64,000 nt of DNA. It comes from an uncultured Bacilli bacterium (GTDB lineage Bacteria > Bacillota_I > Bacilli_A > RF39 > UBA660). Below are positions 20,326 through 60,623 of the stretch, piece after piece. The translations under genes and the position numbers were made by a program. How positions within the stretch are numbered: the first letter of the stretch is position 1; each line of letters opens with the position of its first letter. A model generated the notes under the pieces. The model made no database searches and had not been told where the DNA came from. It saw nothing but the letters and a program-made list of their open reading frames with translations. The stretch is taken from contig CALVON010000039.1 in NCBI GenBank assembly GCA_944350315.1, forward strand, positions 48 through 64,047. Reading direction: 5' to 3'.

Positions 20326-20724
20326 ATGTCAAACAAAAGTATTGGTAAAATGATATATCAATTAAGAAGAAAGAAAGGAATGACACAAAATGATTTAGCT
20401 AAAAAAATGAATGTAAGCGATAAAGCAGTATCAAAATGGGAACGAAACTTATCTTACCCAGATATTAGCTCTATTCCAAAATTAGCAGAAATTCTAGGAA
20501 CAACAGTAGAAGAATTGCTAAATGCGCAATCTAAAAATAACAATATTAAAAATGATGAAATATTTAATATTATATTAATCAGTATTGGCTTAGCTATGGG
20601 AATTTGCATAGTAGTAACTTCAATATTAAAAAAAATTGATTTAAACAGTGCTATTACAATGTTAGGAATAGGTCTTTGTTGTTTATCAATATACCTATTA
20701 AAAAATAAAAATAATTTAAATTAA
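20326..20724 (+). CDS. XRE-family HTH regulator with two C-terminal transmembrane segments
   Basis: IYQLRRKKGMTQNDLAKKMNVSDKAVSKWERN is an HTH_3 motif. The C-terminal hydrophobic stretches are IFNIILISIGLAMGICIVV and ITMLGIGLCCLSIYLL. Confidence 0.8.
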   Translation: MSNKSIGKMIYQLRRKKGMTQNDLAKKMNVSDKAVSKWERNLSYPDISSIPKLAEILGTTVEELLNAQSKNNNIKNDEIFNIILISIGLAMGICIVVTSILKKIDLNSAITMLGIGLCCLSIYLLKNKNNLN

Positions 20725-24214: not shown

Positions 24215-25519
24215 ATGTACCATTTTATTGGTATTAAAGGAGCAGGAATGAGCTCTTTAGCAGTAATTATGAAACAATTAGGTTATGATGTTCAAGGAAG
24301 TGATATTGCAAAGCATTTCTTTACTGAAGAAGAATTAATAAAAAACAATATTAAAATAACTAATTATAATGAAAATAACATTAAAGACGAGTTAATAATA
24401 ATTAAAGGATTATCGATAACTGAAGATAATATTGAATTAATTGAATCCAAAAAAAGAAATTTGCAAATTATAGATTATAATGAAATGGTGGGTCTATTGA
24501 CAAAAAAATTTAAAACTATTTGTATTGCTGGCTGTCATGGAAAAACAACAACAACCTCAATGATCTCTCATGTGCTAGACCAAATTATTGGCATAAACTA
24601 TTTAATTGGTGATGGAACAGGACACGCTAAAAAAGACAATAATTATTTTGCCTTAGAAAGTTGTGAATATAAAAGACATTTTTTAAAATACACGCCTTAT
24701 TATGCAGTTATTTTAAATATTGATTTAGACCATGTGGATTATTTTAAAAATATTGAAGACATTATAAGTGCATATGAAGAATTTGCTAATTCTTCCACTA
24801 AAATGGTAATAGCATGCGGTGATGATGAAAATGTAAAGAAAATGAATTTAGTAAAGAAAGTAGTTTATTTTGGATTACATGAAGACAATGATATAAAAGC
24901 TACCAATATTTCTTATAATCAAGATGGAACAGTATTTGATGTATACATTAACAATATTTTATATGGTCACTTTGATTTACCTATCTTTGGAAAACATCAA
25001 TTATTAGACGCTCTAGCAACTATTAGTGTTTGTTATTATGAAAGTATTTCTTCAAAAGAAGTTAATAATAATTTATCGACTTTTACTGGAGCCAAAAGAA
25101 GATTTGCAGAAACCAAAGTAGGTGATTGCATCATAATAGATGACTATGCACATCACCCAAATGAAATAAGTTCAACAATTAACGCAATAAAACAAAAATA
25201 TCCTGATAAATTAATTATTTCCATTTTTCAACCACATACATTCTCAAGAACAGAAGAATTTGCTAATGATATTGCAAATGCTTTATCAAAAACAGATTTT
25301 GCATATATTTTAGATATTCACCCTGCAAGAGAAAAACAAGAAGATTATCCTAAAATTACCAAAGATTTAATTATTAACAAAATGCATAATGGATATCCAA
25401 TCACTATAGAAGACGCCAATATACTTAATAAATATCATAATGCTGTCTTTATCTTTATGTCCCCAAATGATATTTCACAAATAGAAAATGAATTAATTAA
25501 TTTAAAGCAAAAAAATTAA
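24215..25519 (+). CDS. murC: UDP-N-acetylmuramate--L-alanine ligase
   Basis: HFIGIKGAGMSSLA, then GCHGKTTTTSM (P-loop). 434 aa. Confidence 0.93.
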   Translation: MYHFIGIKGAGMSSLAVIMKQLGYDVQGSDIAKHFFTEEELIKNNIKITNYNENNIKDELIIIKGLSITEDNIELIESKKRNLQIIDYNEMVGLLTKKFKTICIAGCHGKTTTTSMISHVLDQIIGINYLIGDGTGHAKKDNNYFALESCEYKRHFLKYTPYYAVILNIDLDHVDYFKNIEDIISAYEEFANSSTKMVIACGDDENVKKMNLVKKVVYFGLHEDNDIKATNISYNQDGTVFDVYINNILYGHFDLPIFGKHQLLDALATISVCYYESISSKEVNNNLSTFTGAKRRFAETKVGDCIIIDDYAHHPNEISSTINAIKQKYPDKLIISIFQPHTFSRTEEFANDIANALSKTDFAYILDIHPAREKQEDYPKITKDLIINKMHNGYPITIEDANILNKYHNAVFIFMSPNDISQIENELINLKQKN

Positions 25520-25540
25520 TAAGATAAAAAATTAGAAAAA

Positions 25541-25575
25541 AGTATTTTATGAAAAAGTAAAATGCTTTTTTTTTT
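25541..25575 (+). terminator. rho-independent terminator after murC
   Basis: AGTATTTTA-tgaaaaag-TAAAATGCT (one G:U pair), then T10. Confidence 0.65.
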
Positions 25576-25604
25576 AGAATAATACTAGTGAGGAGGTGAT
25601 AAGG

Positions 25605-27686
25605 ATGCAAAAAAAATATATTGTTCTTCAAGATGGAATAAAAGAATGTGGTAGTGCTTGCCTTTTGTCCATTATTAGATATTATCAAGGTAATATTTCG
25701 ATGAACAGATTATTAGAAATGACTAACACTAATAAAGATGGAACTAATTTTTATTATTTAAGTAAGGCCGCTAATGAAATCGGATTGTCATCAAAAGGAT
25801 ATAAAATAGAAAGTATAAAAGAATGTCAATATTTTGAATTTCCATTTATTAGTCAAGTACTTGTTAACCATTGTACTCATTTTGTTGTAGTATACAAAAT
25901 AAAAAATAATAAGTTAACAATAATGGATCCAGCTAAAGGAATGGTTACAATGTCAAATAGTGACTTTGAAAGCATTTTTACCGGTAATATTTTACTATTA
26001 GAACCAATTAAAAAATTACCAGTATATGCTGAAAATAATTATCTCATAGAAATAATTAAAAACGTTATAACTAGTAATAAGAACATTATAATTAAATTAT
26101 TTTCTTTAACATTTATTGTAACTATTTTAACCTGTATTTATAGTTATCACTTTAAAATAATTATTGATAATGCGATTAATACAAATAAATTTAATATATT
26201 AATAATTACTATTATTTTTGTTATAATTCTTTCTACTAATAAAATAATTGAATATTTAAGAAATAATCTTTTACTATATTTAAATCAAAAACTTGATTTA
26301 TCAATAATTATTACTACCATAAATAAAATAATATCACTTCCTTATAGTTATTATAAAAATAAAACAACTGGTGAAATAATTTCTAGAGTAAATGATTTAC
26401 TACATATAAAAAATGTTGTATCAAAGATAATAGTCATAATCTTTTTAGATACAATATTATCATTAGTAGTTCTCATTATTCTATTTAAAATTAATACAAC
26501 CATGACTTTATTGTTAATATTAATAACTATCATTTATTTACTGATCTATTTGACTTTTAAAAATAGTATTAAAAATCATACAAATACTATTCAAGAAAGT
26601 AATGCCAAAGTAAATTCGCTTTTAGTTGAATCGATAAGCAGTTATGAAACAATCAAAGGGTTAAATTTAGAAGATAATTTTAAGAAGAAACTAAATAAAG
26701 AATATTTAAATACCATAAACAATAATCTATCATTGATAAATCTTACTAATTCGGAATCTTTAGTTAAAGATATTTTAGAAGGTGTAATACTTTTATTTAT
26801 GACATATGTAGGTTCAGTCTCTATTATGAATAATAATTTATCAATAGGTAGTTTGATTACTTATAACATGCTGTTAAACTACTATTTGAATCCGCTTAGA
26901 AATTATTTAGAAATATATAAAGAAATATTTTATGTAAAAAATAGTATAAAAAATATTAATAATATATTAAATTATAAATATGAAAGTTTAGACAAATCAA
27001 GTAATTTATTATTAGAAGGAGAAATTAATATTAAAAATTTAAATTTTAGTTATAACAGTAAGAATAAAATCTTAAATAATGTCTCAATAAAAATTCCTAA
27101 GCAAAATAAAGTATTAATAATTGGTTCTTCAGGTAGTGGGAAATCCACATTATTAAAAATATTAAATAAATACCATATTGTTAGTAGGGATAAAATTTAT
27201 TATGAGAAATATGATATTAACGATTTTACTATAAAAGATATAAGAAAAAACATAACCTATATATCTCAAAATGAACTGCTATACACAGCTACAATAAGAG
27301 AAAATATTATTTTAGATAGGGATATAGATGAGAAAGAGTTTATAGAAGTATGTAATTTAACATATGTATCAGATATTGTAAATGATAAAGAAGTTTCTTA
27401 CGATTATCAACTAGAAGAAAATGGCGTAAATTTATCAGGTGGACAAAGGCAAAGAATTGTATTAGCTAGATCTTTATTAAAAGAATCAAATATTATTTTA
27501 ATAGATGAAGGGTTGAATGAGATAGATATAAATTTAGAAAGAAAAATCCTTAAAAATATTTTTAAAAGGTGCAAGGATAAAACAATTATAATTGTATCAC
27601 ATCGACTAGATAATATGGACTTATATGATATGGTAGTCAAATTAGAAAAAGGTGAAATAAAGGAAGTTTTGAAAAAAAATGAATGA
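25605..27686 (+). CDS. bacteriocin-type ABC exporter with an N-terminal C39 peptidase domain
   Basis: C39 catalytic pattern QDGIKECGSACL, HFVVVY, MDPAKG. Six-TM block. Walker A GSSGSGKST, signature LSGGQRQR, Walker B ILIDE, H-loop VSHR. AGGAGG lies 8 nt before the ATG at 25605. Confidence 0.9.
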   Translation: MQKKYIVLQDGIKECGSACLLSIIRYYQGNISMNRLLEMTNTNKDGTNFYYLSKAANEIGLSSKGYKIESIKECQYFEFPFISQVLVNHCTHFVVVYKIKNNKLTIMDPAKGMVTMSNSDFESIFTGNILLLEPIKKLPVYAENNYLIEIIKNVITSNKNIIIKLFSLTFIVTILTCIYSYHFKIIIDNAINTNKFNILIITIIFVIILSTNKIIEYLRNNLLLYLNQKLDLSIIITTINKIISLPYSYYKNKTTGEIISRVNDLLHIKNVVSKIIVIIFLDTILSLVVLIILFKINTTMTLLLILITIIYLLIYLTFKNSIKNHTNTIQESNAKVNSLLVESISSYETIKGLNLEDNFKKKLNKEYLNTINNNLSLINLTNSESLVKDILEGVILLFMTYVGSVSIMNNNLSIGSLITYNMLLNYYLNPLRNYLEIYKEIFYVKNSIKNINNILNYKYESLDKSSNLLLEGEINIKNLNFSYNSKNKILNNVSIKIPKQNKVLIIGSSGSGKSTLLKILNKYHIVSRDKIYYEKYDINDFTIKDIRKNITYISQNELLYTATIRENIILDRDIDEKEFIEVCNLTYVSDIVNDKEVSYDYQLEENGVNLSGGQRQRIVLARSLLKESNIILIDEGLNEIDINLERKILKNIFKRCKDKTIIIVSHRLDNMDLYDMVVKLEKGEIKEVLKKNE

Positions 27687-28098
27687 TATATTAGATATTG
27701 AAATTATATTAAAAAGAAAAAAATATAGTTCCATATATAATGTTGGAATTATATTAATTATTATCTTTTTAATAATAGTTTATATTCTATTTACATATCA
27801 ATATCAAACATATTATATATCGAAAGGAAAAGTTTTAGACAACAAACTAGAATTGATAGTAGATGTTAATGATATAAAATATATAAAAAACAACTCACTT
27901 ATTAAATTAGATGATACATACTATAATTATTCAATAGAAAAAATAGGCGAAGAATTAATTATAGATAACTTATATAACAATTATCAATACGTCTATTTAG
28001 AAGTTGATGGATTAAAAGAAAAAGATAATTATGTTTATCAAATTAAAATACCTAAAGAAAAGCAGATACTAGCGAAATACTTAAAAAAATATTTTTAA
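27679..28098 (+). CDS. small membrane-anchored accessory protein of the exporter (function inferred)
   Basis: ATGA overlap with the ABC gene stop suggests translational coupling. One N-terminal TM and a beta-rich domain of about 90 aa. Much shorter than HlyD/LcnD-type accessory proteins. Confidence 0.55.
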   Translation: MNDILDIEIILKRKKYSSIYNVGIILIIIFLIIVYILFTYQYQTYYISKGKVLDNKLELIVDVNDIKYIKNNSLIKLDDTYYNYSIEKIGEELIIDNLYNNYQYVYLEVDGLKEKDNYVYQIKIPKEKQILAKYLKKYF

Positions 28099-28109
28099 AG
28101 GGAGGATAA

Positions 28110-28247
28110 ATGGAATTAAGCAAAGAACAAATGTACCAAGTAAATGGTGGAATTGCTTGGGGAATAATCGCTGGGTTAGCAACTGCATTAGTATATATAG
28201 TAGGATGCTTTAGTGGTTATACTAATCCAACAAAATGCAATAATTAA
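28110..28247 (+). CDS. double-glycine leader peptide 1 (class II bacteriocin precursor candidate), 45 aa
   Basis: Own translation: MELSKEQMYQVNGG/IAWGIIAGLATALVYIVGCFSGYTNPTKCNN. GGGAGG RBS 5 nt upstream. Not in the ORF track. Confidence 0.8.
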   Translation: MELSKEQMYQVNGGIAWGIIAGLATALVYIVGCFSGYTNPTKCNN

Positions 28248-28261
28248 TAAAAGGAGGAAAT

Positions 28262-28426
28262 ATGGAACTTAAAAAAAATCAAATGGAACTAATTACTGGT
28301 GGTTCAATAACATCAGCCTGGGTAAATGCTATTTCAAAAGCCATTAACACAATATACGAATTGGGAAGACAAACTGGAAGTGCTTTAAGAAGAATTGTTA
28401 GTGGCTCATATTGCCCTATAAACTGA
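28262..28426 (+). CDS. double-glycine leader peptide 2 (class II bacteriocin precursor candidate), 54 aa
   Basis: Own translation: MELKKNQMELITGG/SITSAWVNAISKAINTIYELGRQTGSALRRIVSGSYCPIN. AGGAGG RBS. Not in the ORF track. Confidence 0.8.
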   Translation: MELKKNQMELITGGSITSAWVNAISKAINTIYELGRQTGSALRRIVSGSYCPIN

Positions 28427-28461: not shown

Positions 28462-28484
28462 AAAAAGGCTTTTGCCTTTTTTTC
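28462..28484 (+). terminator. rho-independent terminator closing the bacteriocin operon
   Basis: AAAAAGGC-tttt-GCCTTTTT plus further Ts. Confidence 0.7.
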
Positions 28485-28513
28485 TTGAAAAAAAAAGCTA
28501 TATTTGTTAAAAT
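28485..28513 (+). promoter_or_regulatory. sigma-A type promoter
   Basis: TTGAAA, 17 nt, TAAAAT. Lies directly after the terminator and upstream of the ATG at 28538. Confidence 0.5.
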
Positions 28514-28537: not shown

Positions 28538-29953
28538 ATGAGGAAACAAGAAAACTTATTTAAATTAATAAATATAGTAACAATTATTTTATTTTATTAT
28601 ATAACAAAAGAGCGTAGTATATTTCCATATATTTTATCTTTTAGTTTATATAATATCTTTTCAACCAGCTTTAGTAATTTTTCTTTTTCAGAAAAGATGG
28701 ATGATTATAACAAAAGAAAACATTTAAAAATTCTTACTCTATTTATAAGTATTATTGGTCTGTTATTTTTGCTTTTATCAATTTTTATAAGCGACATATC
28801 AAGTTCTATTTTAAACACAAACGAAATGTTTTTAACATTTGCTTTTATGGGAATATCGACCATATGTAATCCGATTGTAAATACATTAATTTCATATTTA
28901 AAATCTACTAAAAGAATTAATAAGAGCAATATAATATACAATATATATAGATATTTAGAAATATTTTTATTCTTACTTATAAGCGTCATAGTATTTAGAA
29001 TGCTTGACTTAAGTTCAGATATTAGCTGTGCCTTATTATATATGTCCAAAATAATTAGTGCAGCAATAGTTATCTTTATTACACTACCTACAATCAAAAA
29101 AGATAGAAAAAAAATATCAACAAATTCAATGTATAAATATAATTACAAACTAGAATTAAGAAAAATATTGACAAAAAGCAATTCTAAAAGTATCATTAAT
29201 ATAGTCCAAAATAGTTATTATTATATTTCGATTATAATTGTTTATTTTGTATTAAGTACAAGATATGATTATGCAATTAATATCATTGAAAATAATATAA
29301 TATTTATATATTTTTATCTTATAATTATGATGAACTATAGCATTGATATTATTAATTATATTAAAGAAAAAAATATTAAAATGAAAAATATTACGAATGA
29401 TATATACTTAACTTTAAAGGTAATCTTACCACTTGCCATAATTAATAGTATTATTTCACCACTAATATGTAAAATTATTTTTAATGCTCCAGAAAATTCA
29501 ATTTATTTAACAATGATTAGTTTTATGAGCATTTTTGTAATTTTATATAATACAACTGCTAGTAATATTAAGACTAAAAAAATTATAAATATAAGCTTGT
29601 TTATTGGCCTTATATGTAAAATAATAACAACAGTTCCCCTTATAAATGCTTTTTATAGAATGGGATACAATTTAATATATGGTGATATATCAAGTACTAT
29701 TCTAAGTATGTTAATCACTATTATTATAAATTATATGGCATCCAACAATAAATCACTTATAAAAGATAAATATCTAGATAAAATATTAAATACTTTATAT
29801 GAGAATATTATATTAGCAATTATCTTAATAGTTTTGGAATTTATAATTCCTATAGATACAACTAGTTATATAAAGTCTCTTTTGCTGATAATTCCATATA
29901 TACTTGTAAGTATAAGTTTTTTCAGAATAAAATATAGAGTAGAAAAGAGGTAA
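28538..29953 (+). CDS. divergent polytopic membrane protein (MOP/flippase-like topology, uncertain)
   Basis: 471 aa with about 12-14 hydrophobic segments. No conserved motif recognised. Confidence 0.35.
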   Translation: MRKQENLFKLINIVTIILFYYITKERSIFPYILSFSLYNIFSTSFSNFSFSEKMDDYNKRKHLKILTLFISIIGLLFLLLSIFISDISSSILNTNEMFLTFAFMGISTICNPIVNTLISYLKSTKRINKSNIIYNIYRYLEIFLFLLISVIVFRMLDLSSDISCALLYMSKIISAAIVIFITLPTIKKDRKKISTNSMYKYNYKLELRKILTKSNSKSIINIVQNSYYYISIIIVYFVLSTRYDYAINIIENNIIFIYFYLIIMMNYSIDIINYIKEKNIKMKNITNDIYLTLKVILPLAIINSIISPLICKIIFNAPENSIYLTMISFMSIFVILYNTTASNIKTKKIINISLFIGLICKIITTVPLINAFYRMGYNLIYGDISSTILSMLITIIINYMASNNKSLIKDKYLDKILNTLYENIILAIILIVLEFIIPIDTTSYIKSLLLIIPYILVSISFFRIKYRVEKR

Positions 29954-33877: not shown

Positions 33878-34264
33878 ATGAATAACTATATTCAAATATT
33901 AATTGAAATAATTATTGTTTTTACTTTAGTTTTTTTGCTTAATTATTTTCTTTTTGTAAGAAAAAATAAAAAATTAAAAAAAGACGATATGCCATTAGAG
34001 CTCTTTTATCTAGCAAATATATATAATATAGATCCAAAAAAAATTAATTTTCGTATGTTTCAATATACCTACAGTATAATAAATTCTTTCATAATAACAA
34101 CAACATATATGCTAGTAATATATTTAATTAAGTCAATGATAATTAAAGTAATTGTTGGAATAGTAATTTTAATTTTATTAATTATTATATGCTATGGTTT
34201 ATTGGGAAAATATTATAGTTATCAGCAGTTAAAATATAATGATAAAAAAAATAGCAAAAAATAG
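33878..34264 (+). CDS. small membrane protein
   Basis: Two or three hydrophobic segments. No family recognised. Confidence 0.45.
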   Translation: MNNYIQILIEIIIVFTLVFLLNYFLFVRKNKKLKKDDMPLELFYLANIYNIDPKKINFRMFQYTYSIINSFIITTTYMLVIYLIKSMIIKVIVGIVILILLIIICYGLLGKYYSYQQLKYNDKKNSKK

Positions 34265-34310
34265 TGCTATTTTTTTTTGTAATGCATATTTTAAATTGAG
34301 GAGTGATGTA

Positions 34311-34829
34311 ATGGCATACAAAGAAATAGTAACAAAAGCAGTTATTGGTAAGGGTAAGAAAAAATATCGTAATTCTTATCAAGTAACTACCGAACAAACC
34401 CCAACTACCATTCTTGGCTGTTGGATAATTAATCATAACTTTTCGGCTAAAGAAGTAGATGGAAAGATATTAATAGATGGCAGTTTTGATGTTAATATAT
34501 GGTATTCATACGATGCTGATACAAAAACGGCAGTTATTACTAAAAAAATAACTTATTCAGAAGAAGAAAAATTAAATATTGAGACAATGAATGTTGTTAA
34601 CAAAGATATCATAGTAAGAAGTTTAAAACAACCAACATGTATTTCTGCTAAAGAAGAAGGAAATGTTATAAATATTGAAATAGAAAAAGAATTAGGACTA
34701 GAAATAATTGGGGATACTAAAGTCAAAGTATCCTCTGTAGAAGAAGAAGATACATGGGATTTATTAGAAGACGAAAAAGAAATTGATAATATTAATCCAA
34801 AATATATAAATGAAGAGATAATAAAATAA
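34311..34829 (+). CDS. cotE: spore coat morphogenetic protein CotE
   Basis: The ATG at 34311 after GAGGAG gives MAYKEIVTKAVIGKGKKKY...ILGCWIINH...DVNIWYSYD.DTKT...LKQPTC...IGDTKV and an acidic tail with INP..I, collinear with B. subtilis CotE. Confidence 0.75.
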   Translation: MAYKEIVTKAVIGKGKKKYRNSYQVTTEQTPTTILGCWIINHNFSAKEVDGKILIDGSFDVNIWYSYDADTKTAVITKKITYSEEEKLNIETMNVVNKDIIVRSLKQPTCISAKEEGNVINIEIEKELGLEIIGDTKVKVSSVEEEDTWDLLEDEKEIDNINPKYINEEIIK

Positions 34830-38686: not shown

Positions 38687-38878
38687 TTAATAAAATCCTG
38701 GATATGGTGGGTACGGACGATAAGGAGGTACAGGTACAGGTACTGGATATGGTCTTGGATAAAAAGAAGGAGCTAGCAAGCCACCAGTAATTCCGCCAAG
38801 AATAAATGGCCCAAAAAATCCACCACCGATAAAACGATCACCAGTATTTACTGGCATTCTATTTCTCATTAAATACAT
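38687..38878 (-). CDS. small Gly/Pro/Tyr-rich protein (spore-coat-like composition)
   Basis: 63 aa: GGGFFGPFILGGITGG, then YPRPYPVPVPVPPYRPYPPYPGFY. Confidence 0.5.
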   Translation of the reverse strand: MYLMRNRMPVNTGDRFIGGGFFGPFILGGITGGLLAPSFYPRPYPVPVPVPPYRPYPPYPGFY

Positions 38879-39571: not shown

Positions 39572-39772
39572 TTAAGCAGTAACAAAAGAACGAGATCCGA
39601 TAATAATAACTAATAATATAAATAATACTAATACTATTGCTGCTCCAGAACCATATCCATATCCCATTCCGTATCCTCCATACATAGGGTATGATGAGTA
39701 TCCAGAATAATAAGAATTATTTCCACAACCGCAACTACTATTATTGCCAGAATATCCTCCATAATAATACAT
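39572..39772 (-). CDS. YjcZ-like small sporulation protein
   Basis: 66 aa. A Gly/Tyr/Ser/Cys-rich N-terminus is followed by AAIVLVLFILLVIIIG, the architecture of the YjcZ family. Confidence 0.6.
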   Translation of the reverse strand: MYYYGGYSGNNSSCGCGNNSYYSGYSSYPMYGGYGMGYGYGSGAAIVLVLFILLVIIIGSRSFVTA

Positions 39773-40624: not shown

Positions 40625-40655
40625 ACCCAGTAAACTATTTACTGGGTCTTTTTTT
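40625..40655. terminator. terminator hairpin shared by convergent genes
   Basis: ACCCAGTAAA-cta-TTTACTGGGT, then T7. Overlaps the last codons of the minus-strand ATPase gene. Confidence 0.7.
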
Positions 40656-41883
40656 CTAATAAACATTTAATATTTTCTTCGGCATTTACCTCATCGTCAG
40701 CTTCTGTAAGTTTAATAACTTCAGAAATAGAAGTAAATCCAGCCATGACTTTGTATAATCCATCTTGTAGCAAAGTTATGACATCTCCAGCATAAACTAA
40801 ACGTCTAAGTTCAGACTTTGAAACTCTAGCATTAATTGCATCTCTAATATCAGGAGAAATTAATAAAACTTCTTGAAGAGCAATCCTTCCGCGATACCCC
40901 CCAGAGCAATGTGGGCATCCCACTGCATCATATATTTGATTAACATCCATATTCAAAAATCTTTTAAACATTTCTTTCTCATACGTTGTTGTATCTCTTA
41001 CTTTTTTACATTTATCACATAATTTCCTTGCTAGTTTTTGGGATACGATTCCAGATAAAGCTGAAGCCAACAAATAACGCTCAACCTCCATATCAAGCAG
41101 CCTTTCAATAGTAGTAAGAGAATTATTAGTATGTAGTGTAGAAAGTACTAAATGACCAGTAATAGAAGCTCTAACTGCAATTTGTGCTGTTTCACTGTCT
41201 CTAATTTCACCAATCATAATGATGTTAGGGTCCTGCCTCAAAACACTTCTTAAAACTGTTGCAAAATCAAGTCCAATATCACTATTTACCTGGACCTGAT
41301 TGATTCCTTCAATATCCATTTCAACGGGGTCTTCAACAGTAATTAAATTAACACCCTTGACATTAAGTTTTTGTAAAAAAGAATACACTGTCGTTGATTT
41401 ACCACTACCAGTAGCTCCAGTTACCAAAATAATACCATTCGGTTCAGCAATCATTTTTAATATTTTTTTATAATTTTCTTCAGAAAAACATAAATACTCA
41501 ATACCTTTTAAACTTCTAGAATAGTCGAGAATTCTTATAACTATTTTTTCTCCTTTTTTAGTAGGTAGTGAAGAAACACGCATATCTAAATCTAATCCAC
41601 CAAGTTCTGTTTTTATTGCACCATCTTGTGGTAACCTGGTCTCTGTGATATTCATTCCAGATAAAATTTTAATTCTTGTGATAATATTATTCTTTACATC
41701 ATTAGGAATATCCGCATAGTCATTTAAAATACCATCAATTCTGATTCTTACTTTTAGACAATTATCAAAATGATCAAAGTGAATATCACTAGCACCAGAT
41801 CTTGCAGCATCTAAAATAATTCTATTAACAACATCTACCACTGGTGTATTAATAAAGTCGATATTACTATGCATAAATATCAC
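40639..41883 (-). CDS. GspE/PilB/ComGA-family secretion ATPase (short form)
   Basis: Walker A GATGSGKST, Asp box, Walker B IMIGEIRD, His box TGHLVLSTLHTN, tetracysteine CDKC...CPHC. 414 aa. The start could instead be the ATG at 41874. Confidence 0.88.
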   Translation of the reverse strand: MIFMHSNIDFINTPVVDVVNRIILDAARSGASDIHFDHFDNCLKVRIRIDGILNDYADIPNDVKNNIITRIKILSGMNITETRLPQDGAIKTELGGLDLDMRVSSLPTKKGEKIVIRILDYSRSLKGIEYLCFSEENYKKILKMIAEPNGIILVTGATGSGKSTTVYSFLQKLNVKGVNLITVEDPVEMDIEGINQVQVNSDIGLDFATVLRSVLRQDPNIIMIGEIRDSETAQIAVRASITGHLVLSTLHTNNSLTTIERLLDMEVERYLLASALSGIVSQKLARKLCDKCKKVRDTTTYEKEMFKRFLNMDVNQIYDAVGCPHCSGGYRGRIALQEVLLISPDIRDAINARVSKSELRRLVYAGDVITLLQDGLYKVMAGFTSISEVIKLTEADDEVNAEENIKCLLEKKTQ

Positions 41884-45520: not shown

Positions 45521-45595
45521 ATCTGTCAAATAAATAAAAAATATTGTTTGACATAAACAAATTTGCTATAATAAGTTAGAAAGTAGGTGTATGAA

Positions 45596-47563
45596 ATGAA
45601 AAAAATGTCATATTTTGTCTTATTACTATTATCATTTATTTGTTTTTCTAATCATACATTTGCTATTAGTATTATTGAAGTTAATGGTTATGATGTTAGA
45701 TTTAGAAGCTCACCAAGTACTAATAGTACTATATATAATTCTTTTAATATAGGTGAAAAATTAACATACCTTGCTACATCTTCTAGTGGTAATGGCTGTA
45801 GCGGACCATGGTATAAAGCACAATATGCTAGCACAGTAGGATATATTTGCAGTGACTATGCTATATTAAAAGAAATAGATTCTTCAGAATATGAAGACTA
45901 TCAAGAATATTTAAAAGATTTAGGTTTTCCTGATACTTATATTCCATATTTAACAACTTTACATACAATTCACCCTAATTGGCAATTTCAAATTATGAAT
46001 GTTGATATAACATTTAACAATATGGTTAATATTGAATATGATGGCCATTCCCAAGGATGGAGTCTAATTGAAGATACTGGAAGTTATTATGACGGATATA
46101 AGTCTACCGATAGTTGGGCTTACAACTATCTTACTAATGTCTTTAGAAACAATTATATTGGTGGTGGAACAAACTGGTATGCCGCTAACAAACAAGTAAT
46201 AAGTTATTATCTAGACCCAAGAAATTTCTTAAATGAAAAACAGATATTTATGTTTGAAACACAAACCTTTAATTCTGCATATCACACAAAAGATGGAGTA
46301 GAGTTAGCCTTAAAAGGAACATTTATGGAGAGTAAACTTGCCGATGAAGAAAATAATTTTACATATGCAGATGCCTTTATTGAAGCAGGAGTAGAACACG
46401 GAATAAGTCCATACTTATTAATATCAAGAGTAATTCAAGAAGTCGGAGCCCAAGGTAGTACTATCGTAAGTGGAACTGTCGCTGGATATGAAGGATATTA
46501 TAATTTTTACAATATAAATGCTTATGGAAATACAAATACGGAAACAATTACTAACGGATTAAAATATGCTAAAAGTCAAGATTGGTCAACCCCATATAAA
46601 GCAATTGTTGGTGGAGCAGAATTCTTGCAAAACGGCTATCTTGATCAAGGACAAAATACACTATACTTGCAAAAATGGGATTTATTTGGTCCAAATTATG
46701 GAAATCATCAATATATGCAAAATATTCAAGCACCATCAACTGAATCTATAAAAACATATAATGCATATAAAAATGTTAATTTAATAGATAGTAGTTTTAC
46801 CTTTGTTATTCCCGTATTTAAAGAAATGCCTGAAAAAACAACACTACCAAGTAAAGGAAACCCTAATAATTATTTATCAAGTTTATCAGTAAATGGTAGC
46901 TACTTATTCGAAAGTGCCACTCATGAAACAACATTTAATCTAAATTTAGATACTACTTCTTCATCAATTGACATTGCTGCTACTAAAGTATCCAATAAAT
47001 CAACTATAAGTGGTACAGGAAGTGTAGCATTAAAAGGAAATGAACAAACAATCTCAATTTTAGTAACTGCTGAAAATGGCGATACTAGAACATATAAAAT
47101 AAATATAACGAGGTCTACCAGCATATCTTTAGATATAAGCGAGATATTAAGAGTACTAAATATAAAAAATGATGGTACATATATTTATGGTTATGAACTT
47201 GGAACAAAGATTGAAAGTATAATGAAAAGTATCTCCGACAAAGAACCACAAGCTACCGTGACTGCCTTTAATAAAGATGGCAAAGAAAAAAGTAGTGGAA
47301 TAATTGCTTCTGGAGATATTATAAACATTAAAACTGACCGTGAAGAAAAAAATTATACAATCTTGATTTATGGTGACGTCAATGGTGATGGTAAAATTAC
47401 CGCATCTGATTACATGACAATAAAAAATCATATTATGGATATCAAAAAATTATCAGATCAAGAAAAGTTATATGCTGATGCAAACAAAGATGGTAAAGTT
47501 ACCGCATCTGACTATATGACAATAAAAAACCATATTATGGATATAAAAAAAATAACTCAATAA
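45596..47563 (+). CDS. secreted SH3b - GH73 N-acetylglucosaminidase - cadherin-like - dockerin protein
   Basis: Signal peptide, SH3b (VRFRSSPSTNSTIY...GPWYKAQ...GYICSDY), GH73 core (FIEAGVEHGISPYLLISRVIQEVG), a cadherin-like beta-sandwich (NYLSSLSVNG...TYKINITR) and two dockerin EF-hand repeats (DVNGDGKITASD, DANKDGKVTASD). Confidence 0.8.
   Translation: MKKMSYFVLLLLSFICFSNHTFAISIIEVNGYDVRFRSSPSTNSTIYNSFNIGEKLTYLATSSSGNGCSGPWYKAQYASTVGYICSDYAILKEIDSSEYEDYQEYLKDLGFPDTYIPYLTTLHTIHPNWQFQIMNVDITFNNMVNIEYDGHSQGWSLIEDTGSYYDGYKSTDSWAYNYLTNVFRNNYIGGGTNWYAANKQVISYYLDPRNFLNEKQIFMFETQTFNSAYHTKDGVELALKGTFMESKLADEENNFTYADAFIEAGVEHGISPYLLISRVIQEVGAQGSTIVSGTVAGYEGYYNFYNINAYGNTNTETITNGLKYAKSQDWSTPYKAIVGGAEFLQNGYLDQGQNTLYLQKWDLFGPNYGNHQYMQNIQAPSTESIKTYNAYKNVNLIDSSFTFVIPVFKEMPEKTTLPSKGNPNNYLSSLSVNGSYLFESATHETTFNLNLDTTSSSIDIAATKVSNKSTISGTGSVALKGNEQTISILVTAENGDTRTYKINITRSTSISLDISEILRVLNIKNDGTYIYGYELGTKIESIMKSISDKEPQATVTAFNKDGKEKSSGIIASGDIINIKTDREEKNYTILIYGDVNGDGKITASDYMTIKNHIMDIKKLSDQEKLYADANKDGKVTASDYMTIKNHIMDIKKITQ
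47390..47551 (+). repeat. two 60-nt near-identical segments encoding the dockerin repeat pair
   Basis: 47390-47449 and 47492-47551 differ at 5 of 60 nt (GKI/VTASDYMTIKNHIMDIKK). Confidence 0.85.
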
Positions 47564-47579
47564 TTAAGGAGTGAAATAA

Positions 47580-49022
47580 ATGAAATACTTAAAAAAAATT
47601 AGTAGATATTTATTATTAACAATAATTGTTTCAACTTTATATATAAATAATGTATTAGCATATGGATACGATATATCCGTAACTAGTAGTACCGTAACTG
47701 TTGGTAATAATGTAACTTTAAAAATACAAGGAAGTCAAATTGCTGGTCGTTTCAATATAACCTCATCAAATACAGGTGTTGCCAGCTTATCAACAAGTAG
47801 TGTTTGGGTCGAAAATGATACCCAATCAATAACTATAAATGCTAAAAAAGTTGGTAAAGCTACTATTACAATTACTCCTAATGATATTACTACAACAGAT
47901 ACTAACCCTAAAGATGTCAGCTTAAATGCCAAAACGATTACCATAACCGTTAAAGCAAAACCAACAAGTGGTGGCGGTAGTAGTTCAGGAGGTAATAGCC
48001 AATCAACGACTCCAACAAAATCTACTAACAGTTATTTATCAAGTATCACAGTTGATGGTTTTGAATTAAATGAAGAGTTTGATAAAGAAAGTTTAGAATA
48101 TACTTTAACTGTTCCATACGATACTGAAAAAATTAAAATTAATGCCCAATTAGAAGATTCAAATGCTAAAGTAACTGGAGTAGGTGAGGTTAACGTATCG
48201 ACCGGTTTAAATACTTTTGAAATCATCGTAACTGCCGAAAACGGTAGTAAAAGAACATATAGTCTCAAAGTAACAGTTGAAGAAGAAGATCCTATCGAAG
48301 TAAAAATAGATAACGAAACACTAACAGTCATTAGGAAAAGAAAAGATTTACCTAAGATTAGTGAATATTTTGAAGAAAAAGATATTACTATTGATAATAA
48401 AAATGTTGAAGGTTATTATAATGATACTTTAAAATACACCGTCGTAGGATTAAAAAATTCTCTTGGAGAAATAAATTACTATATATATGACTCTGGAAAA
48501 TATACCAAATATGAAGAATATACCTTTAACGGAACAACATTACAAGTATTAGATAAAGCAGTTTCTGGAGCTAAAAAAACTAGCTTCGTATATGACAGTA
48601 GCAAAATAACAAGCTATCAAGAAGTAAAATTAGATGTCTTAAAAAATACTTATGCCCTTGATAATAATGATATTGGTGGCAATCAATTTTACTTATTTTA
48701 TGCTATAAACATAGAAACAGGAAAAGAATCACTTTATCAATATGATGCTAGTGAAAAAACAGTTCAAAGATATAATACTCTAGTCTTAGATATGTATAAA
48801 GATAGAAGTGATAAATATTACTTATGTTTACTAGGAAGTTTACTTCTACTTGGAATTGTCATTCTTACTTTCAGTATAACTATGATACATAAGAAAAAAC
48901 AAAGTAAAAAGAAAATTAACTTAGTAAAAGAAAAACCATCTAAAAAAGTAATTGATGAAGAACAAGAAAAGTTTTCCTTCGATGATTTACCAATAAAAAA
49001 TAAAACCAAAAGACAAGACTAA
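47580..49022 (+). CDS. surface protein: Big_2-like, S/G linker, cadherin-like domain, unknown domain, C-terminal TM anchor
   Basis: Signal peptide, TVTVGNNVTLKI...VGKATITITP, SGGGSSSGG linker, NSYLSSITVDG...RTYSLKVTV, TM YYLCLLGSLLLLGIVILTFSITMI and a basic tail. Confidence 0.7.
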   Translation: MKYLKKISRYLLLTIIVSTLYINNVLAYGYDISVTSSTVTVGNNVTLKIQGSQIAGRFNITSSNTGVASLSTSSVWVENDTQSITINAKKVGKATITITPNDITTTDTNPKDVSLNAKTITITVKAKPTSGGGSSSGGNSQSTTPTKSTNSYLSSITVDGFELNEEFDKESLEYTLTVPYDTEKIKINAQLEDSNAKVTGVGEVNVSTGLNTFEIIVTAENGSKRTYSLKVTVEEEDPIEVKIDNETLTVIRKRKDLPKISEYFEEKDITIDNKNVEGYYNDTLKYTVVGLKNSLGEINYYIYDSGKYTKYEEYTFNGTTLQVLDKAVSGAKKTSFVYDSSKITSYQEVKLDVLKNTYALDNNDIGGNQFYLFYAINIETGKESLYQYDASEKTVQRYNTLVLDMYKDRSDKYYLCLLGSLLLLGIVILTFSITMIHKKKQSKKKINLVKEKPSKKVIDEEQEKFSFDDLPIKNKTKRQD

Positions 49023-56901: not shown

Positions 56902-59900
56902 ATGAAAAAAGAAAATAATAATCAAAAGGAAATAAATAAAGAAAATAAAATTAATAAATTAGGTAAAAAAAGTATCATAATAACTATATTTAGTATATTA
57001 TTAGTAACTATTATTGGAACAGCTGCTTGGCTTACATGGAGAAGTAATGATACGGCTTTAGTACTTACTATTGGTGATTTAAATACAGCTCAGGTTATAT
57101 TAAAACCATATAAAATAAATACCGAAATATTACCAGTAAATAGTTATGAAAATGAACTATATACTGATGTAGAAGCAATAAATAGCAGTTCTACATCTAA
57201 AAAAATAAAACTATTTTATAGAATTACTAATATTGATGAAGAACTAATAACTGAAGATTTTAAATATACTATAACAAGAAGTACTGATAATGGATCAACC
57301 TATGAAGAATATCAATCAGGAAATTTTTCAACCGCTCAAAATAATCAAGATTTCTATATCTTAAAAGAAAATATTCCCGGTAATACGACATATAAATATA
57401 AAGTATATATATGGTTAGATGGAAGTAATGGTAATCAAACAGAAGTACAAGGTAAAAAATTTGAAGGAGAACTTAGAGCAGAAATATTAAATGGAAGTGA
57501 TGTAGTAGTAGATTTACCAGATGGATTAATTCCAATAACTTATGATGTATCAGGAAATAATACCATTGTTAAAACTATAGATAGTACTAATAGTAGTTGG
57601 TATGACTATGATGAACAACTATGGGCTAATGGTGTATTAGTAACCGAGTCATCAAGAAATACATATTTAAACACATCTGGAGTAACTATTCCAGAATCAG
57701 ATATTTTAGCATATTATGTCTACATACCAAGATATAAATATAAAATATGGACAACTGAAGAAAGCAGTACAGGAGAAGAACAAGAAATAGAAATAATCTT
57801 TGAAAATACATCCATGACAAAATCACAAGGAACTCAAGTCGGAGAATATATTACTCATCCAGCCTTTACTTTTGGAAGTAATGAAGTAAATGGTATCTGG
57901 GTAGGAAAGTTTGAAACAACTGGAACTGAAGAAACTCCTACGGTAAAACCAGATGTGACATCGCTAAGAAATCAAAATGTATCAACTCAATTTCAAACAG
58001 CCTTAAAATTTGCTGGTGGAACAATGGCTGATGACGGAAGTGTGACATTTTCTGGTTCATCAACATATGGACTAGATAGCAACATTGACAGTCACATGAT
58101 GAAAAATAGTGAATGGGGGGCAGTAGCTTACTTATCACATTCTAAATATGGATTAAATAGTGAAGTATATATTAATAATTCATCTGGATGTTATACTGGA
58201 AGAAGTGGTGGAAATGTTGGTGGAAGTACCCCAATAAATGGAACATATCCTGATCAAACATCAATAGTTGAAAAAAACACATATGGCTTTTATACTTGGG
58301 ATGGCTACTTATTAAATTATAATACCAATACCAAATCATCAACAAGAGATTTAACAAAAGTAGCAAGTACCACAGGAAATATTACTGGAGTATATGACAT
58401 GTCTGGAGGAGCATATGAATATGTAATGGGAAATTATAATAATACTATTTCCTCAAGTGGGTTTACGGTAATGCCAAGCAGTAAATATTATGATTTATAT
58501 ACTTCAACAAATAGATTAACTTCGTGTAATGGAGGAGTATGCTTTGGACATGGAATTTCAGAAACTAGCTTTTGGTATGAAGATTCAGCAACTTTTTTTG
58601 TTTCATTATATTCATGGTTAGCAAGAAGTTCTGCTTACGATAAAGGAGTTATTTCTGGTACATTTCATTACAGTGCAACACAAGGCACACAACAAACATG
58701 GCAAGGATTCCGTTCCGTATTAGTAAAAGCTCCATATAGTGATCCAATATTAAATGGCTCAGATCCAGTACTTGATGAAGGAATAATCCCAATAACATTT
58801 GATGTATCAGGCGATAATACCATAATAAAAACTGCAGGCTTATATGATGAATGGTATAACTATTCTAATCAAGAATGGGCAAATGCAATATTAGTAACTG
58901 AAGAGTCAAGAGATACATATCTAGGAACATCTGGAGTAGAAGTAAATCAATCAGATATCTTAGCATATCTAGTATGGATACCAAGATATAAATATAAGAT
59001 ATGGACGCTATCTGAAAGTAGTACAGGTCAAGAACAAGAAATAGAAATCGTATTTGAATCAAAAGATGAAATATCAACAGGCACTCAAGTAGGAGAATAT
59101 ATAACTCATCCAGCATTCTGGTGGGATGATGATAGTGATGGGGTAAGAGAAGAAGAAGAAGAATTATCAGGCATTTGGGTAGGAAAGTTTGAAACAACAG
59201 GAGATGCCACAACGCCGACGGTATTACCGGATGTTACTTCGCTAAGAAGTCAATCTGTATCAACTCAATTTAAAACAGCCTTAAAATTTGCCGGTGGAAC
59301 AATGGCGGACGATGGAAGTGTAACCTTTACTGGTTCATCAACTTATGGGTTAACAGCTAATACCGACAGTCATACGATGAAAAATAGTGAATGGGGCGCG
59401 GTTGCTTATTTATCACATTCAAAATATGGCGTAAATAGAGAGGTATATATAAATAATAGTAGTGGTTATTATACTGGAAGAAGTGGTGGAAATGTAGGTG
59501 GTAGTACTCCGATAAATGGAATATATTCTGATCAATCATCAACAACACAATATAACACATATGGTTTTTATACCTGGGATGGATACTTATTAAATTATAA
59601 TACCAATACCAAATCATCAACAAGAGATTTAACCAAAGTAGCCAGTACAACAGGAAATATTATGGGAGTATATGATATGTCTGGAGGTGCGACTGAATAT
59701 GTAATGGGAAATTTAAATAAAAAAAGCATGGGAGATAATTTTAACCCATTTCCTAGTCAAAAATATTATGATTTATATACGACAATAAGCAGTTTAACTG
59801 CCTGTAATGGTGGAGTATGTTTTGGGCATGCTTTGTCAGAGGTAAGTTTGTGGCATAGTGATGGTGGTGAAATTGATGATGGTAATGGTCCGTGGTTTCT

Positions 59901-60188: not shown

Positions 60189-60623
60189 ATGGAAAGAGAA
60201 ATGATTAATAAAAGTAGTAAGAATAATAAAAAGGGTTTTACTTTAGTAGAGTTAATTGCTACTATTGTTGTCTTGGCTTTAGTCGTAGGTATATCTAGTT
60301 ATGCTGTTATTGGTTTAATACAAAGTTCTAAAGAAAAGAATTATGAATTATTAATTACCAGTATTAAAGATGCCGCAGAAACTTATTATCAAGAATGCAC
60401 CTATTCTAATAATACAGGTATTACCTGTGGTAATACAGTAACACTTAATGATTTACTTACTTATGGTTATTTAAAAGGAAATGATTCTGATCATGATAAT
60501 AGTATTATTAATCCTAAAGATAATGAAAATATAGGTGCCTGTCAAATATCTATTTCTTATTTATCTGGTAAAGTAGAAGTTAGTGCCGTTAATCCTACTG
60601 GTAGCTGTCCTACTGAATATTAA
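60189..60623 (+). CDS. prepilin-type N-terminal cleavage/methylation domain protein (pseudopilin)
   Basis: KKG/FTLVELIATIVVLALVV is a class III signal. Two Cys pairs in the globular part. The start could instead be the ATG at 60201. Confidence 0.85.
   Translation: MEREMINKSSKNNKKGFTLVELIATIVVLALVVGISSYAVIGLIQSSKEKNYELLITSIKDAAETYYQECTYSNNTGITCGNTVTLNDLLTYGYLKGNDSDHDNSIINPKDNENIGACQISISYLSGKVEVSAVNPTGSCPTEY

What the first reader, a model, noticed from the sequence alone, without database searches (positions are those of the whole stretch)
28110..28426. Two small double-glycine-leader peptide genes absent from the ORF track: candidate two-peptide (class IIb-like) bacteriocin
Direct translation gives two peptides:
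- 28110-28247: MELSKEQMYQVNGG|IAWGIIAGLATALVYIVGCFSGYTNPTKCNN
- 28262-28426: MELKKNQMELITGG|SITSAWVNAISKAINTIYELGRQTGSALRRIVSGSYCPIN

Each has a strong GGAGG-type RBS. Both have 14-residue leaders ending in GG with the hydrophobic/charged spacing typical of C39-processed leaders.

Mature peptide 1 is hydrophobic with a GxxxG (GIIAG) and two Cys. Mature peptide 2 is cationic and amphipathic with GRQTG. Paired GxxxG peptides are the hallmark of two-peptide bacteriocins.

The genes lie directly behind a C39-ABC exporter and before a clean terminator. I do not recognise either mature sequence as a known bacteriocin.
Basis: partly seen in the sequence, partly recalled or inferred. Interest (0 to 1): 0.66.

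Follow-up and report, generated by a model that had tools for sequence, protein, structure and literature searches.

The report
Candidate two-peptide bacteriocin operon
Two small, always-paired secreted-peptide genes sit behind their own processing exporter in an uncultured low-GC gut bacterium; they look like a new but fairly ordinary two-peptide bacteriocin with no recognisable immunity gene.

Summary
Both ORFs are real, at the stated coordinates: pep1 (45 aa) and pep2 (54 aa). Each has a 14-residue double-glycine leader and a GGAGG-type ribosome-binding site.

They end a four-gene unit:
- a C39-peptidase ABC exporter;
- pep1 and pep2, followed by a terminator hairpin.

Related uncultured gut and rumen "Bacilli/Mycoplasmatota" contigs gave 24 distinct pep1 variants. 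Twenty-three have a pep2 gene immediately downstream; in the other, the contig ends. Each peptide keeps one invariant GxxxG and one invariant C-terminal Cys. Between strains there are 0 nonsynonymous against 13 and 7 synonymous differences.

Pep1 narrowly passes NCBIfam TIGR03949 (class IIb, lactobin A/cerein 7B), but only with its leader attached. Pep2's mature part matches no family. NCBI already names a pep1 homologue a class IIb bacteriocin.

The class IIb reading is the best explanation (about 0.6). No immunity gene, regulator or activity data were found. The module also sits in a conserved core-chromosome position across species, which is unusual for a bacteriocin.

Verdict: new member of a known kind, modest interest.

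The parts
25539..25577 (+). AT-rich hairpin plus T-run after murC (likely the murC terminator). It is followed by a -10-like TAATAC and the GGAGG site of the exporter gene. The promoter of the operon is not resolved.
   Evidence: Sequence. The element is conserved in the alignment of six loci. Function is inferred.
25605..27686 (+). Peptidase-containing ABC exporter (PCAT), 693 aa from the ATG at 25605. An alternative GTG start lies at 25596. It carries C39 peptidase, ABC membrane and ATPase domains.
   Evidence: Pfam Peptidase_C39 1.3e-33, ABC_membrane 2e-32, ABC_tran 4.8e-26. PDB PCAT1 4ry2 E 8e-112 and ComA 8hf4 E 4e-96, with ECGSAC aligned to the PCAT1 catalytic DCGAAC and HFVVVY to HFVVIY. 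TIGR01193 scores 408 bits, below its 523.85 cut-off.
27679..28098 (+). p139: a 139-aa single-pass membrane protein whose start overlaps the exporter stop by 8 nt. It is a candidate exporter accessory (mini adaptor) or immunity factor.
   Evidence: No Pfam or NCBIfam family. 153 homologues of about 139 aa. 230 clusters at 50% identity, nearly all 135-150 aa apart from shorter fragments and a few up to about 205 aa. AlphaFold2 pLDDT 85.5: transmembrane helix at 22-39, then six strands and a short helix. Foldseek gives only weak repeated hits to MacA, BesA, AcrA and Spr0693 adaptor proteins; none has E <= 1e-3. The gene is absent from loci L019 and L022.
28100..28105 (+). Ribosome-binding site GGGAGG of pep1
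   Evidence: Sequence
28110..28247 (+). pep1 precursor, 45 aa. Leader is residues 1-14 (MELSKEQMYQVNGG). The predicted mature 31-aa hydrophobic peptide starts at nt 28152. Invariant features: G32xxxG36 and SGYTNPxxC (Cys43).
   Evidence: TIGR03949 scores 23.9 bits against a 21.5 cut-off, and 15 of 15 family members match. Cleavage is inferred.
28252..28257 (+). Ribosome-binding site AGGAGG of pep2
   Evidence: Sequence
28262..28426 (+). pep2 precursor, 54 aa. Leader is residues 1-14 (MELKKNQMELITGG). The predicted mature 40-aa cationic amphipathic peptide starts at nt 28304. Invariant features: G35xxxG39 and Cys51. The stop codon is TGA.
   Evidence: The window sequence matches no curated family. 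Homologues end at the same codon with TAA or TAG.
28462..28488 (+). Intrinsic-terminator-like hairpin (AAAAAGGC-TTTT-GCCTTTTT) plus T-run, closing the operon.
   Evidence: Fold of -10.6 kcal/mol. Hairpins with different stem sequences sit at the same position in most of the 14 loci folded.
28485..28513 (+). Conserved promoter-like site (TTGAAA, 17 nt, TG-n-TAAAAT) for the next gene. It marks a separate transcription unit.
   Evidence: conserved across six loci.
28538..29953 (+). mem471: a 471-aa polytopic membrane protein of unknown family and the fastest-evolving neighbour. It is not part of the conserved module. It is a speculative immunity candidate, or a divergent MOP-type flippase.
   Evidence: No Pfam or NCBIfam hit. 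43-55% identity between species against 60-88% for the neighbours other than p139 (47-60%). Absent from L019, L022 and L025-L032. hhalign against the neighbouring MurJ/Polysacc_synt protein gives probability 25.6%. The AlphaFold2 single-sequence model is unusable, pLDDT 47.

Best explanation
This is a minimal class IIb-type (two-peptide, unmodified) bacteriocin operon in an uncultured, very AT-rich gut bacterium.

**Shown**
- Two adjacent genes encode precursors with double-glycine leaders.
- They lie downstream of a C39-peptidase ABC exporter that has an intact catalytic Cys and His.
- The two peptide genes always occur together and in the same order.
- Both are under purifying selection.

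**Inferred**
- The exporter cuts both leaders after Gly14 while exporting the peptides.
- This releases a 31-aa hydrophobic peptide (about 3232 Da) and a 40-aa cationic amphipathic peptide (about 4312 Da).
- On a target membrane the two helices pack through their single invariant GxxxG motifs, probably in parallel, since the motifs sit 18 and 21 residues from the N-termini.
- The membrane-spanning pair permeabilises related Gram-positive cells, probably through a membrane-protein receptor.
- The 139-aa protein, translationally coupled to the exporter, is an exporter accessory, a self-protection factor, or both.
- The role of the invariant C-terminal Cys in each peptide is unknown. It could be an interchain disulfide or a required free thiol.
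For: - ORFs, ribosome-binding sites and leaders are as described.
- The exporter is homologous along its full length to PCAT1 and ComA, with the catalytic motifs aligned.
- Pep1 passes TIGR03949, and 15 of 15 relatives match it.
- Leaders of pep2 relatives weakly hit bacteriocin leader models.
- 23 of 24 distinct pep1 variants have pep2 immediately downstream; the exception is a truncated contig.
- One invariant GxxxG lies in each peptide.
- The physical characters are complementary: GRAVY 0.81 and charge +1 for pep1, against helical moment 0.69 and charge +3 for pep2.
- Only the leaders of the two families are related.
- Selection is purifying between and within species.
- The terminator after pep2 is conserved as a structure.
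- The defining features of class IIb come from PMC2850506.
Against: - No recognisable immunity gene lies in or next to the operon in any clade.
- The leader is 14 residues, slightly below the 15-30 quoted for the class.
- Mature pep1 and mature pep2 match no curated bacteriocin family on their own, no PDB entry, no plasmid and no published sequence.
- The module occupies the same site beside murC in at least five other species. Its divergence tracks that of the housekeeping neighbours. This looks like long vertical inheritance rather than the patchy, mobile distribution usual for bacteriocins.
- There are no expression or activity data.
Confidence: 0.6

Rival explanations
1. Two independent one-peptide (class IId-like) bacteriocins share one exporter. 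Each is active alone and they do not work together.
For: Their mature parts are unrelated. Several streptococcal loci export many separate double-glycine peptides through one transporter; this rests on general knowledge and on the titles listed.
Against: No locus has only one of the two. Order and spacing are fixed in 23 of 23 informative loci. Each peptide has one invariant GxxxG and one invariant Cys, and their physical characters are complementary.
Confidence: 0.12
2. The peptides are exported but are not weapons. They could be a signal, or a membrane-acting pair serving the producer's own physiology (envelope or sporulation related). That would explain why the module is kept as a core-genome feature without an immunity gene.
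For: - Synteny beside murC is conserved across species, and divergence tracks the housekeeping genes.
- All six same-species contigs spanning the site carry the module.
- There are no amino-acid changes within the species.
- No immunity gene was found.
- Neighbours include murC and MurJ/SpoVB-like flippases, and the genome has CotE and YjcZ sporulation-type genes.
Against: - No histidine kinase or response regulator lies in the 64-kb window (my reading) or in any flank.
- At 31 and 40 residues the peptides are longer than typical double-glycine pheromones.
- A 23-residue hydrophobic helix with GxxxG is a bacteriocin-like feature, not a pheromone-like one.
- L035 shows the pair next to a T4SS-pilin-like gene, which suggests some mobility.
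Confidence: 0.18
3. Only one of the two is an active bacteriocin. The other is an induction factor or helper, or the locus is a decaying remnant.
For: In one metagenome contig (L029) the exporter is split into 412 and 269 aa.
Against: Intact exporters occur in the sister contigs L030-L032. Both peptides are under strong purifying selection. No cognate sensor was found.
Confidence: 0.06

Closest known systems
Class IIb two-peptide bacteriocins (lactococcin G, plantaricin EF/JK, plantaricin S), as reviewed in PMC2850506
   Same: - Two different adjacent genes in one operon.
- Double-glycine leaders.
- A dedicated C39-ABC exporter, with a further 'accessory' gene next to it.
- GxxxG in both peptides.
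- One hydrophobic and one amphipathic cationic helix.
   Different: - No immunity gene in the operon.
- The mature sequences resemble no characterised member.
- The accessory is a 139-aa protein of an unannotated family, not a roughly 450-aa HlyD-type protein (that size is from my own knowledge).
- Each peptide has an invariant single Cys near the C-terminus.
- The module sits at a conserved core-chromosome site across species.
NCBIfam TIGR03949, class IIb bacteriocin, lactobin A/cerein 7B family
   Same: Pep1 scores 23.9 bits against a cut-off of 21.5, and 15 of 15 relatives match. NCBI names the homologue MGN1358041.1 this way.
   Different: The match needs the leader; mature pep1 alone gives no hit. 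The window's pep2 does not match, and its relatives match only weakly (best E 4e-4).
PCAT1 of Clostridium thermocellum (PDB 4ry2) and ComA of Streptococcus (PDB 8hf4)
   Same: The same three-domain architecture, alignable over the full length (E 8e-112 and 4e-96), with the catalytic Cys and His conserved.
   Different: The exporter scores below the TIGR01193 cut-off (408 against 523.85 bits). It is translationally coupled to the small p139 partner.
Periplasmic adaptor / membrane-fusion proteins (MacA, AcrA, BesA, Spr0693)
   Same: The p139 model has an N-terminal transmembrane helix followed by six strands and a short helix. It gives repeated weak Foldseek hits to these adaptors (probability 0.75-0.99, TM-score 0.33-0.40 normalised to the query).
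   Different: No hit reaches E <= 1e-3. There is no HlyD Pfam match. There is no coiled-coil hairpin or lipoyl domain. The whole family is only about 140 aa.

Membership tests
Class IIb two-peptide bacteriocin (criteria of PMC2850506) | [quoted passage not shown] | tested here: met
   A 14-nt gap with no terminator between them. The pairing holds in 23 of 24 variants, and the exception is a contig end.
Class IIb two-peptide bacteriocin (criteria of PMC2850506) | Double-glycine leader (15-30 residues) removed by a dedicated C39 ABC transporter | tested here: met
   Both have GG leaders with hydrophobic residues at -4, -7 and -12, but of 14 residues. The adjacent exporter has C39 with catalytic Cys and His. 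Actual cleavage cannot be tested here.
Class IIb two-peptide bacteriocin (criteria of PMC2850506) | GxxxG (or AxxxA/SxxxS) motif in both peptides | tested here: met
   Pep1 G32xxxG36 and pep2 G35xxxG39 are invariant in all relatives.
Class IIb two-peptide bacteriocin (criteria of PMC2850506) | Immunity gene in the same operon | tested here: not met
   No further ORF lies before the terminator. p139 and mem471 match no immunity family. Downstream genes differ between clades and none matches an immunity family. p139 could still serve this role.
Class IIb two-peptide bacteriocin (criteria of PMC2850506) | [quoted passage not shown] | not testable with these tools
   This needs the peptides and a bioassay.
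NCBIfam TIGR03949 (lactobin A/cerein 7B) | HMM score at or above the curated cut-off (21.5 bits) | tested here: met
   Pep1 scores 23.9 bits, but mature pep1 alone gives no hit. The window's pep2 does not match.
Pfam PF10439 Bacteriocin_IIc | HMM score at or above the gathering threshold (27.1 bits) | tested here: not met
   Pep1 scores 15.4 bits, E 0.019; pep2 gives no hit.
Peptidase-containing ABC transporter (TIGR01193 bacteriocin_ABC) | C39, transmembrane and ATPase architecture with a catalytic Cys and His, and a family HMM score above cut-off | tested here: inconclusive
   The architecture and catalytic residues are met. The TIGR01193 score of 408 is below the 523.85 cut-off. It is a divergent member.
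Double-glycine peptide pheromone systems (ComC/BlpC/PlnA type) | A cognate histidine kinase and response regulator encoded nearby | tested here: not met
   None in the 64-kb window (my reading; partial Pfam checks). None in the flanks of related loci. The rest of the genome was not seen.
HlyD/membrane-fusion accessory proteins | HlyD-family sequence match or a significant fold match | tested here: inconclusive
   No Pfam hit. Foldseek hits to MacA, AcrA and BesA are all above E 1e-3.

The most novel reading that the evidence does not exclude
The pair may not be a classical accessory weapon. It may be an ancient, vertically inherited core-genome module of this uncultured Bacilli/Mycoplasmatota gut lineage. 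The two peptides would act as a covalent heterodimer joined through their single invariant C-terminal cysteines, or would depend on those thiols. The module would operate without a dedicated immunity protein and with a new family of roughly 140-aa mini-adaptor partners for peptidase-ABC exporters. I found no report of an interchain-disulfide two-peptide bacteriocin.
Probability: 0.12. Interest if true: 0.6.

Novelty: new member of a known kind. Interest (0 to 1): 0.35.

Why it matters
If active, this would be the first bacteriocin assigned to a widespread but uncultured low-GC gut and rumen lineage, with two mature sequences unlike any characterised one. It could be useful as a narrow-spectrum antimicrobial and as a handle on the ecology of these organisms.

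Three further features raise testable questions about how minimal a two-peptide system can be, and whether such modules can become fixed housekeeping traits:
- the conserved core-genome position;
- the absence of an immunity gene;
- the invariant cysteine pair and the unannotated 140-aa exporter partner, a family of 230 clusters at 50% identity.

Otherwise it is one more genome-mined class II bacteriocin candidate.

Tried and rejected
I used collection scans instead.
The single job went to the p139 alignment.
- **The terminator pattern scan found nothing**. Folding and comparison showed the hairpin.
- **Sequence searches for both peptide families gave nothing meaningful.**
  - PDB profile searches gave only a weak leader match to the carnobacteriocin B2 precursor, E 0.086.
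  - tblastn against 72,556 plasmids gave nothing for pep1 and only chance-level hits for pep2.
  - A full-text search for the conserved motifs gave 0 papers.
- **mem471 stayed unresolved.**
  - No family matched.
  - hhalign against the neighbouring flippase-like protein gave only 25.6% probability.
  - The single-sequence AlphaFold2 model had pLDDT 47, so I ran no fold search on it.
- **Ideas considered and dropped.**
  - Pep1 and pep2 as paralogues: only the leaders align.
  - A glycocin-like S-glycosylated Cys: no glycosyltransferase or thiol-disulfide genes are in the operon.
  - Longer pep2 forms (66-82 aa) as real variants: they come from gene calls made with genetic code 4.
  - A lipoprotein immunity gene: one is conserved after pep2 in one sub-clade only and is absent here.

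Full report
**1. The observation**

GGGAGG (28100-28105) and AGGAGG (28252-28257) each lie 4 nt before the ATG. Both leaders are 14 residues, end in GG, and have hydrophobic residues at -4, -7 and -12.

A scan of all six frames of the window for this leader pattern found no other credible candidate. The window has 26.7% G+C.

**2. The genes are real**

Searching about 5.8 billion proteins gave 14 relatives of pep1 and 31 of pep2. All come from metagenomes or metagenome-assembled genomes.

| Comparison | pep1 | pep2 |
|---|---|---|
| Median dN/dS between species (dS near saturation, so rough) | 0.24 | 0.28 |
| Between strains of this species: nonsynonymous / synonymous differences, summed over six non-independent pairs | 0 / 13 | 0 / 7 |

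**3. Anatomy of the unit**

| Element | Coordinates | Notes |
|---|---|---|
| murC | 24215-25519 | Followed by an AT-rich hairpin and T-run |
| ABC exporter | 25605-27686 | C39 peptidase, ABC membrane and ATPase domains |
| pep1, pep2 | 28110-28426 | Separated by 14 nt |
| Hairpin and T-run | 28462-28488 | Fold of -10.6 kcal/mol |
| Promoter-like site | 28485-28513 | TTGAAA, 17 nt, TG-n-TAAAAT |
| mem471 | 28538-29953 | Separate transcription unit |

The exporter aligns over its full length with PCAT1 (4ry2, E 8e-112) and ComA (8hf4, E 4e-96). The motif ECGSAC sits on the catalytic Cys motif and HFVVVY on the catalytic His. It scores below the TIGR01193 cut-off (408 against 523.85 bits), so it is a divergent member.

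The pattern scanner missed the hairpin after pep2. Most of the 14 loci I folded have a hairpin of different sequence at the same place, so the terminator is conserved as a structure.

**4. Comparative evidence**

- **Genome collection.** A scan of species-representative genomes found five uncultured gut genomes, labelled Bacilli, Tenericutes or Clostridiales and with 23-27% G+C.
  - Four have the same order: murC, exporter, p139, pep1, pep2, a membrane protein of about 475 aa, ppaC, ackA.
  - In the fifth (L010) the contig starts at the exporter, and the genes after ppaC differ.
- **Metagenomes.** A metagenome scan with the pep1 alignment gave 25 more loci from human gut, rumen and other sources.
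- **Pairing.** Pooling everything gives 24 distinct pep1 variants. Twenty-three have a pep2 gene immediately downstream. In the other, the contig ends 132 nt after pep1.
- **Invariant residues.**
  - pep1 keeps the GG site, G32xxxG36 and SGYTNPxxC.
  - pep2 keeps the GG site, G35xxxG39-S and a Cys three to four residues from the C-terminus.
- **What is not conserved.** GIIAG and Cys33 of pep1 both vary.
- **Cysteine counts.** Fifteen of 23 pairs have exactly one Cys in each mature peptide.
- **Relatedness of the two families.** They share only the leader (hhalign, 20 columns).

**5. Physical character**

| Property | Mature pep1 | Mature pep2 |
|---|---|---|
| Length | 31 aa | 40 aa |
| Character | Hydrophobic transmembrane-length helix with a polar tail (GRAVY 0.81) | Strongly amphipathic around the GxxxG (18-residue helical moment 0.69) |
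| Net charge | +1 | +3 |

The GxxxG motifs start 18 and 21 residues from the predicted N-termini. That is compatible with parallel helix-helix packing. Both conserved cysteines would then lie beyond the motif, on the C-terminal side. This is inference only.

**6. Family assignment**

- **pep1, full length.** It passes NCBIfam TIGR03949 (class IIb, lactobin A/cerein 7B) at 23.9 bits against a 21.5 cut-off. All 15 family members match.
- **pep1, existing annotation.** NCBI annotates the homologue MGN1358041.1 this way. Its p139-like neighbour MGN1358040.1 is labelled hypothetical.
- **pep1, mature part only.** It gives no hit. Pfam Bacteriocin_IIc is below threshold.
- **pep2.** The window sequence matches nothing. 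Its relatives give weak, leader-type hits to TIGR03949, the lactococcin G-beta family and TIGR01847.
- **Other searches.** PDB, plasmids and a full-text motif search gave nothing.

**7. Accessory and immunity questions**

*p139.*
- It belongs to an unannotated family: 153 close homologues and 230 clusters at 50% identity. Nearly all are 135-150 aa, apart from shorter fragments and a few up to about 205 aa. Ten distant members have no Pfam family.
- The AlphaFold2 model (pLDDT 85.5) shows a transmembrane helix followed by six strands and a short helix.
- Foldseek gives repeated weak hits to membrane-fusion adaptors (MacA, BesA, AcrA, Spr0693), none with E <= 1e-3. This is suggestive, not proven.
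- It is absent from loci L019 and L022, where the exporter abuts pep1. Export may therefore not need it, which leaves a self-protection role open.
- The class IIb review itself says the accessory protein's role is unsettled (PMC2850506).

*mem471.*
- It is not part of the conserved module, being absent from L019, L022 and L025-L032.
- It has its own promoter and evolves fastest of the neighbours.
- It aligns only marginally with the neighbouring MurJ/Polysacc_synt protein.

*Other candidates.* In one sub-clade the gene after pep2 is a conserved lipoprotein with four Cys. In another nothing follows. No known immunity family appears anywhere. The defining feature "immunity gene in the operon" is therefore not met.

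**8. Genomic setting**

The window is core chromosome: ribosomal-protein operons, ligA, recG, smc and tsaBDE. I saw no histidine kinase or response regulator there.

| Gene | Identity to the five other species (L006-L010) |
|---|---|
| pep1 | 51-78% |
| pep2 | 57-74% |
| Exporter | 60-71% |
| murC | 66-76% (no L010 value: contig starts at the exporter) |

For pep2, the exporter and murC the species rank in the same order; pep1 is the exception, being lowest against L008. All six same-species contigs that span the site carry the module, as do Hadza gut contigs of a related species. This points to vertical inheritance of a fixed module. That is unusual for bacteriocins and is the main reason to keep a non-weapon function as a rival.

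One distant pair (L035) sits next to a T4SS-pilin-like gene, so some mobility exists.

**9. Verdict**

The best explanation is a minimal class IIb-like two-peptide bacteriocin, processed and exported by its own peptidase-ABC transporter (confidence about 0.6).

- **Shown:** gene structure, pairing, conservation, exporter homology.
- **Inferred:** cleavage, helix pairing, antimicrobial action, and the roles of p139 and the cysteines.

It is a new member of a known kind. Pep1's type is already recognised by routine annotation. Pep2's mature sequence and p139 are unannotated families.

Noticed in passing
window 28424-28426 and 27684-27686; L036 5570-5818 and 2913-5036: Some public gene calls for this species used genetic code 4 (TGA = Trp). 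This gives a false 82-aa pep2 (and a 66-aa fragment, P0016) and a 707-aa exporter. The DNA has TGA at the table-11 stop. The window has 99 TGG codons and no in-frame TGA in 39 long ORFs. Homologous pep2 genes end at the same codon with TAA or TAG. TGA is therefore a rare stop here (4 of 39 long ORFs).
   Followed up: yes
window 34239-34829 (+), 39572-39667 (-): Sporulation-type genes are present: CotE (Pfam E 4.6e-47) and a 31-aa YjcZ_2 peptide. NCBI labels close relatives of this lineage 'Mycoplasmatota bacterium' or 'Bacilli bacterium'. Together with murC and MurJ-like genes, this points to a walled, possibly spore-forming organism.
   Followed up: partly
window 27679-28098 and 28538-29953 compared with L001, L002, L004: Within the species, the two membrane proteins flanking the peptide genes take amino-acid changes faster than their neighbours. 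dN/dS is 0.21 for p139 and 0.22 for mem471, against 0.02-0.13 for the neighbours. The peptides themselves have none.
   Followed up: partly
L019 5398-5985; L022 5384-5956; L034 434-1021; L027 1199-1792; L028 705-1304: In one sub-clade the gene right after pep2 is a conserved lipoprotein of about 160-220 aa with a four-Cys C-terminal domain (IDYPIHKGRIDC...). It has no Pfam or NCBIfam family and is absent from the window. It is a possible clade-specific immunity or partner protein.
   Followed up: partly
L035 1561-3567: A distant pep1/pep2 pair lies next to a T4SS_pilin-like 347-aa gene and a DUF1310-like gene, with no exporter upstream. It may sit on a mobile element. The contig ends soon after pep2.
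   Followed up: no
L029 2511-4558: In one metagenome contig the exporter is split into 412-aa and 269-aa ORFs, through a frameshift or an assembly error. The sister contigs L030-L032 have an intact 685-aa gene.
   Followed up: no
window 45587-49022: A 658-aa secreted protein carries SH3, cadherin-like and type I dockerin domains. A 480-aa cadherin-like protein follows it. A dockerin is unexpected in this lineage.
   Followed up: no
window 56902-60015: A 1037-aa protein is built of two long, near-identical halves, with a weak FGE-sulfatase-like domain (the internal duplication is seen in the translation). A pseudopilin with an N-methylation motif lies next to it (60189-60623). A T2SSE ATPase is at 40639-41883 (-).
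   Followed up: no
window 38687-38857 (-): A 56-aa Gly/Pro/Tyr-rich small ORF (…GGGFFGPFILGGITGG…PYPVPVPVPPYRPYPPYPGFY) with no family match. It is not known whether it is a real gene.
   Followed up: no
window 20326-20724 (+): A 132-aa protein has an XRE-type HTH followed by predicted transmembrane segments, so it may be a membrane-anchored regulator. It lies 5 kb upstream of the exporter, and no link to the peptide operon was shown.
   Followed up: no
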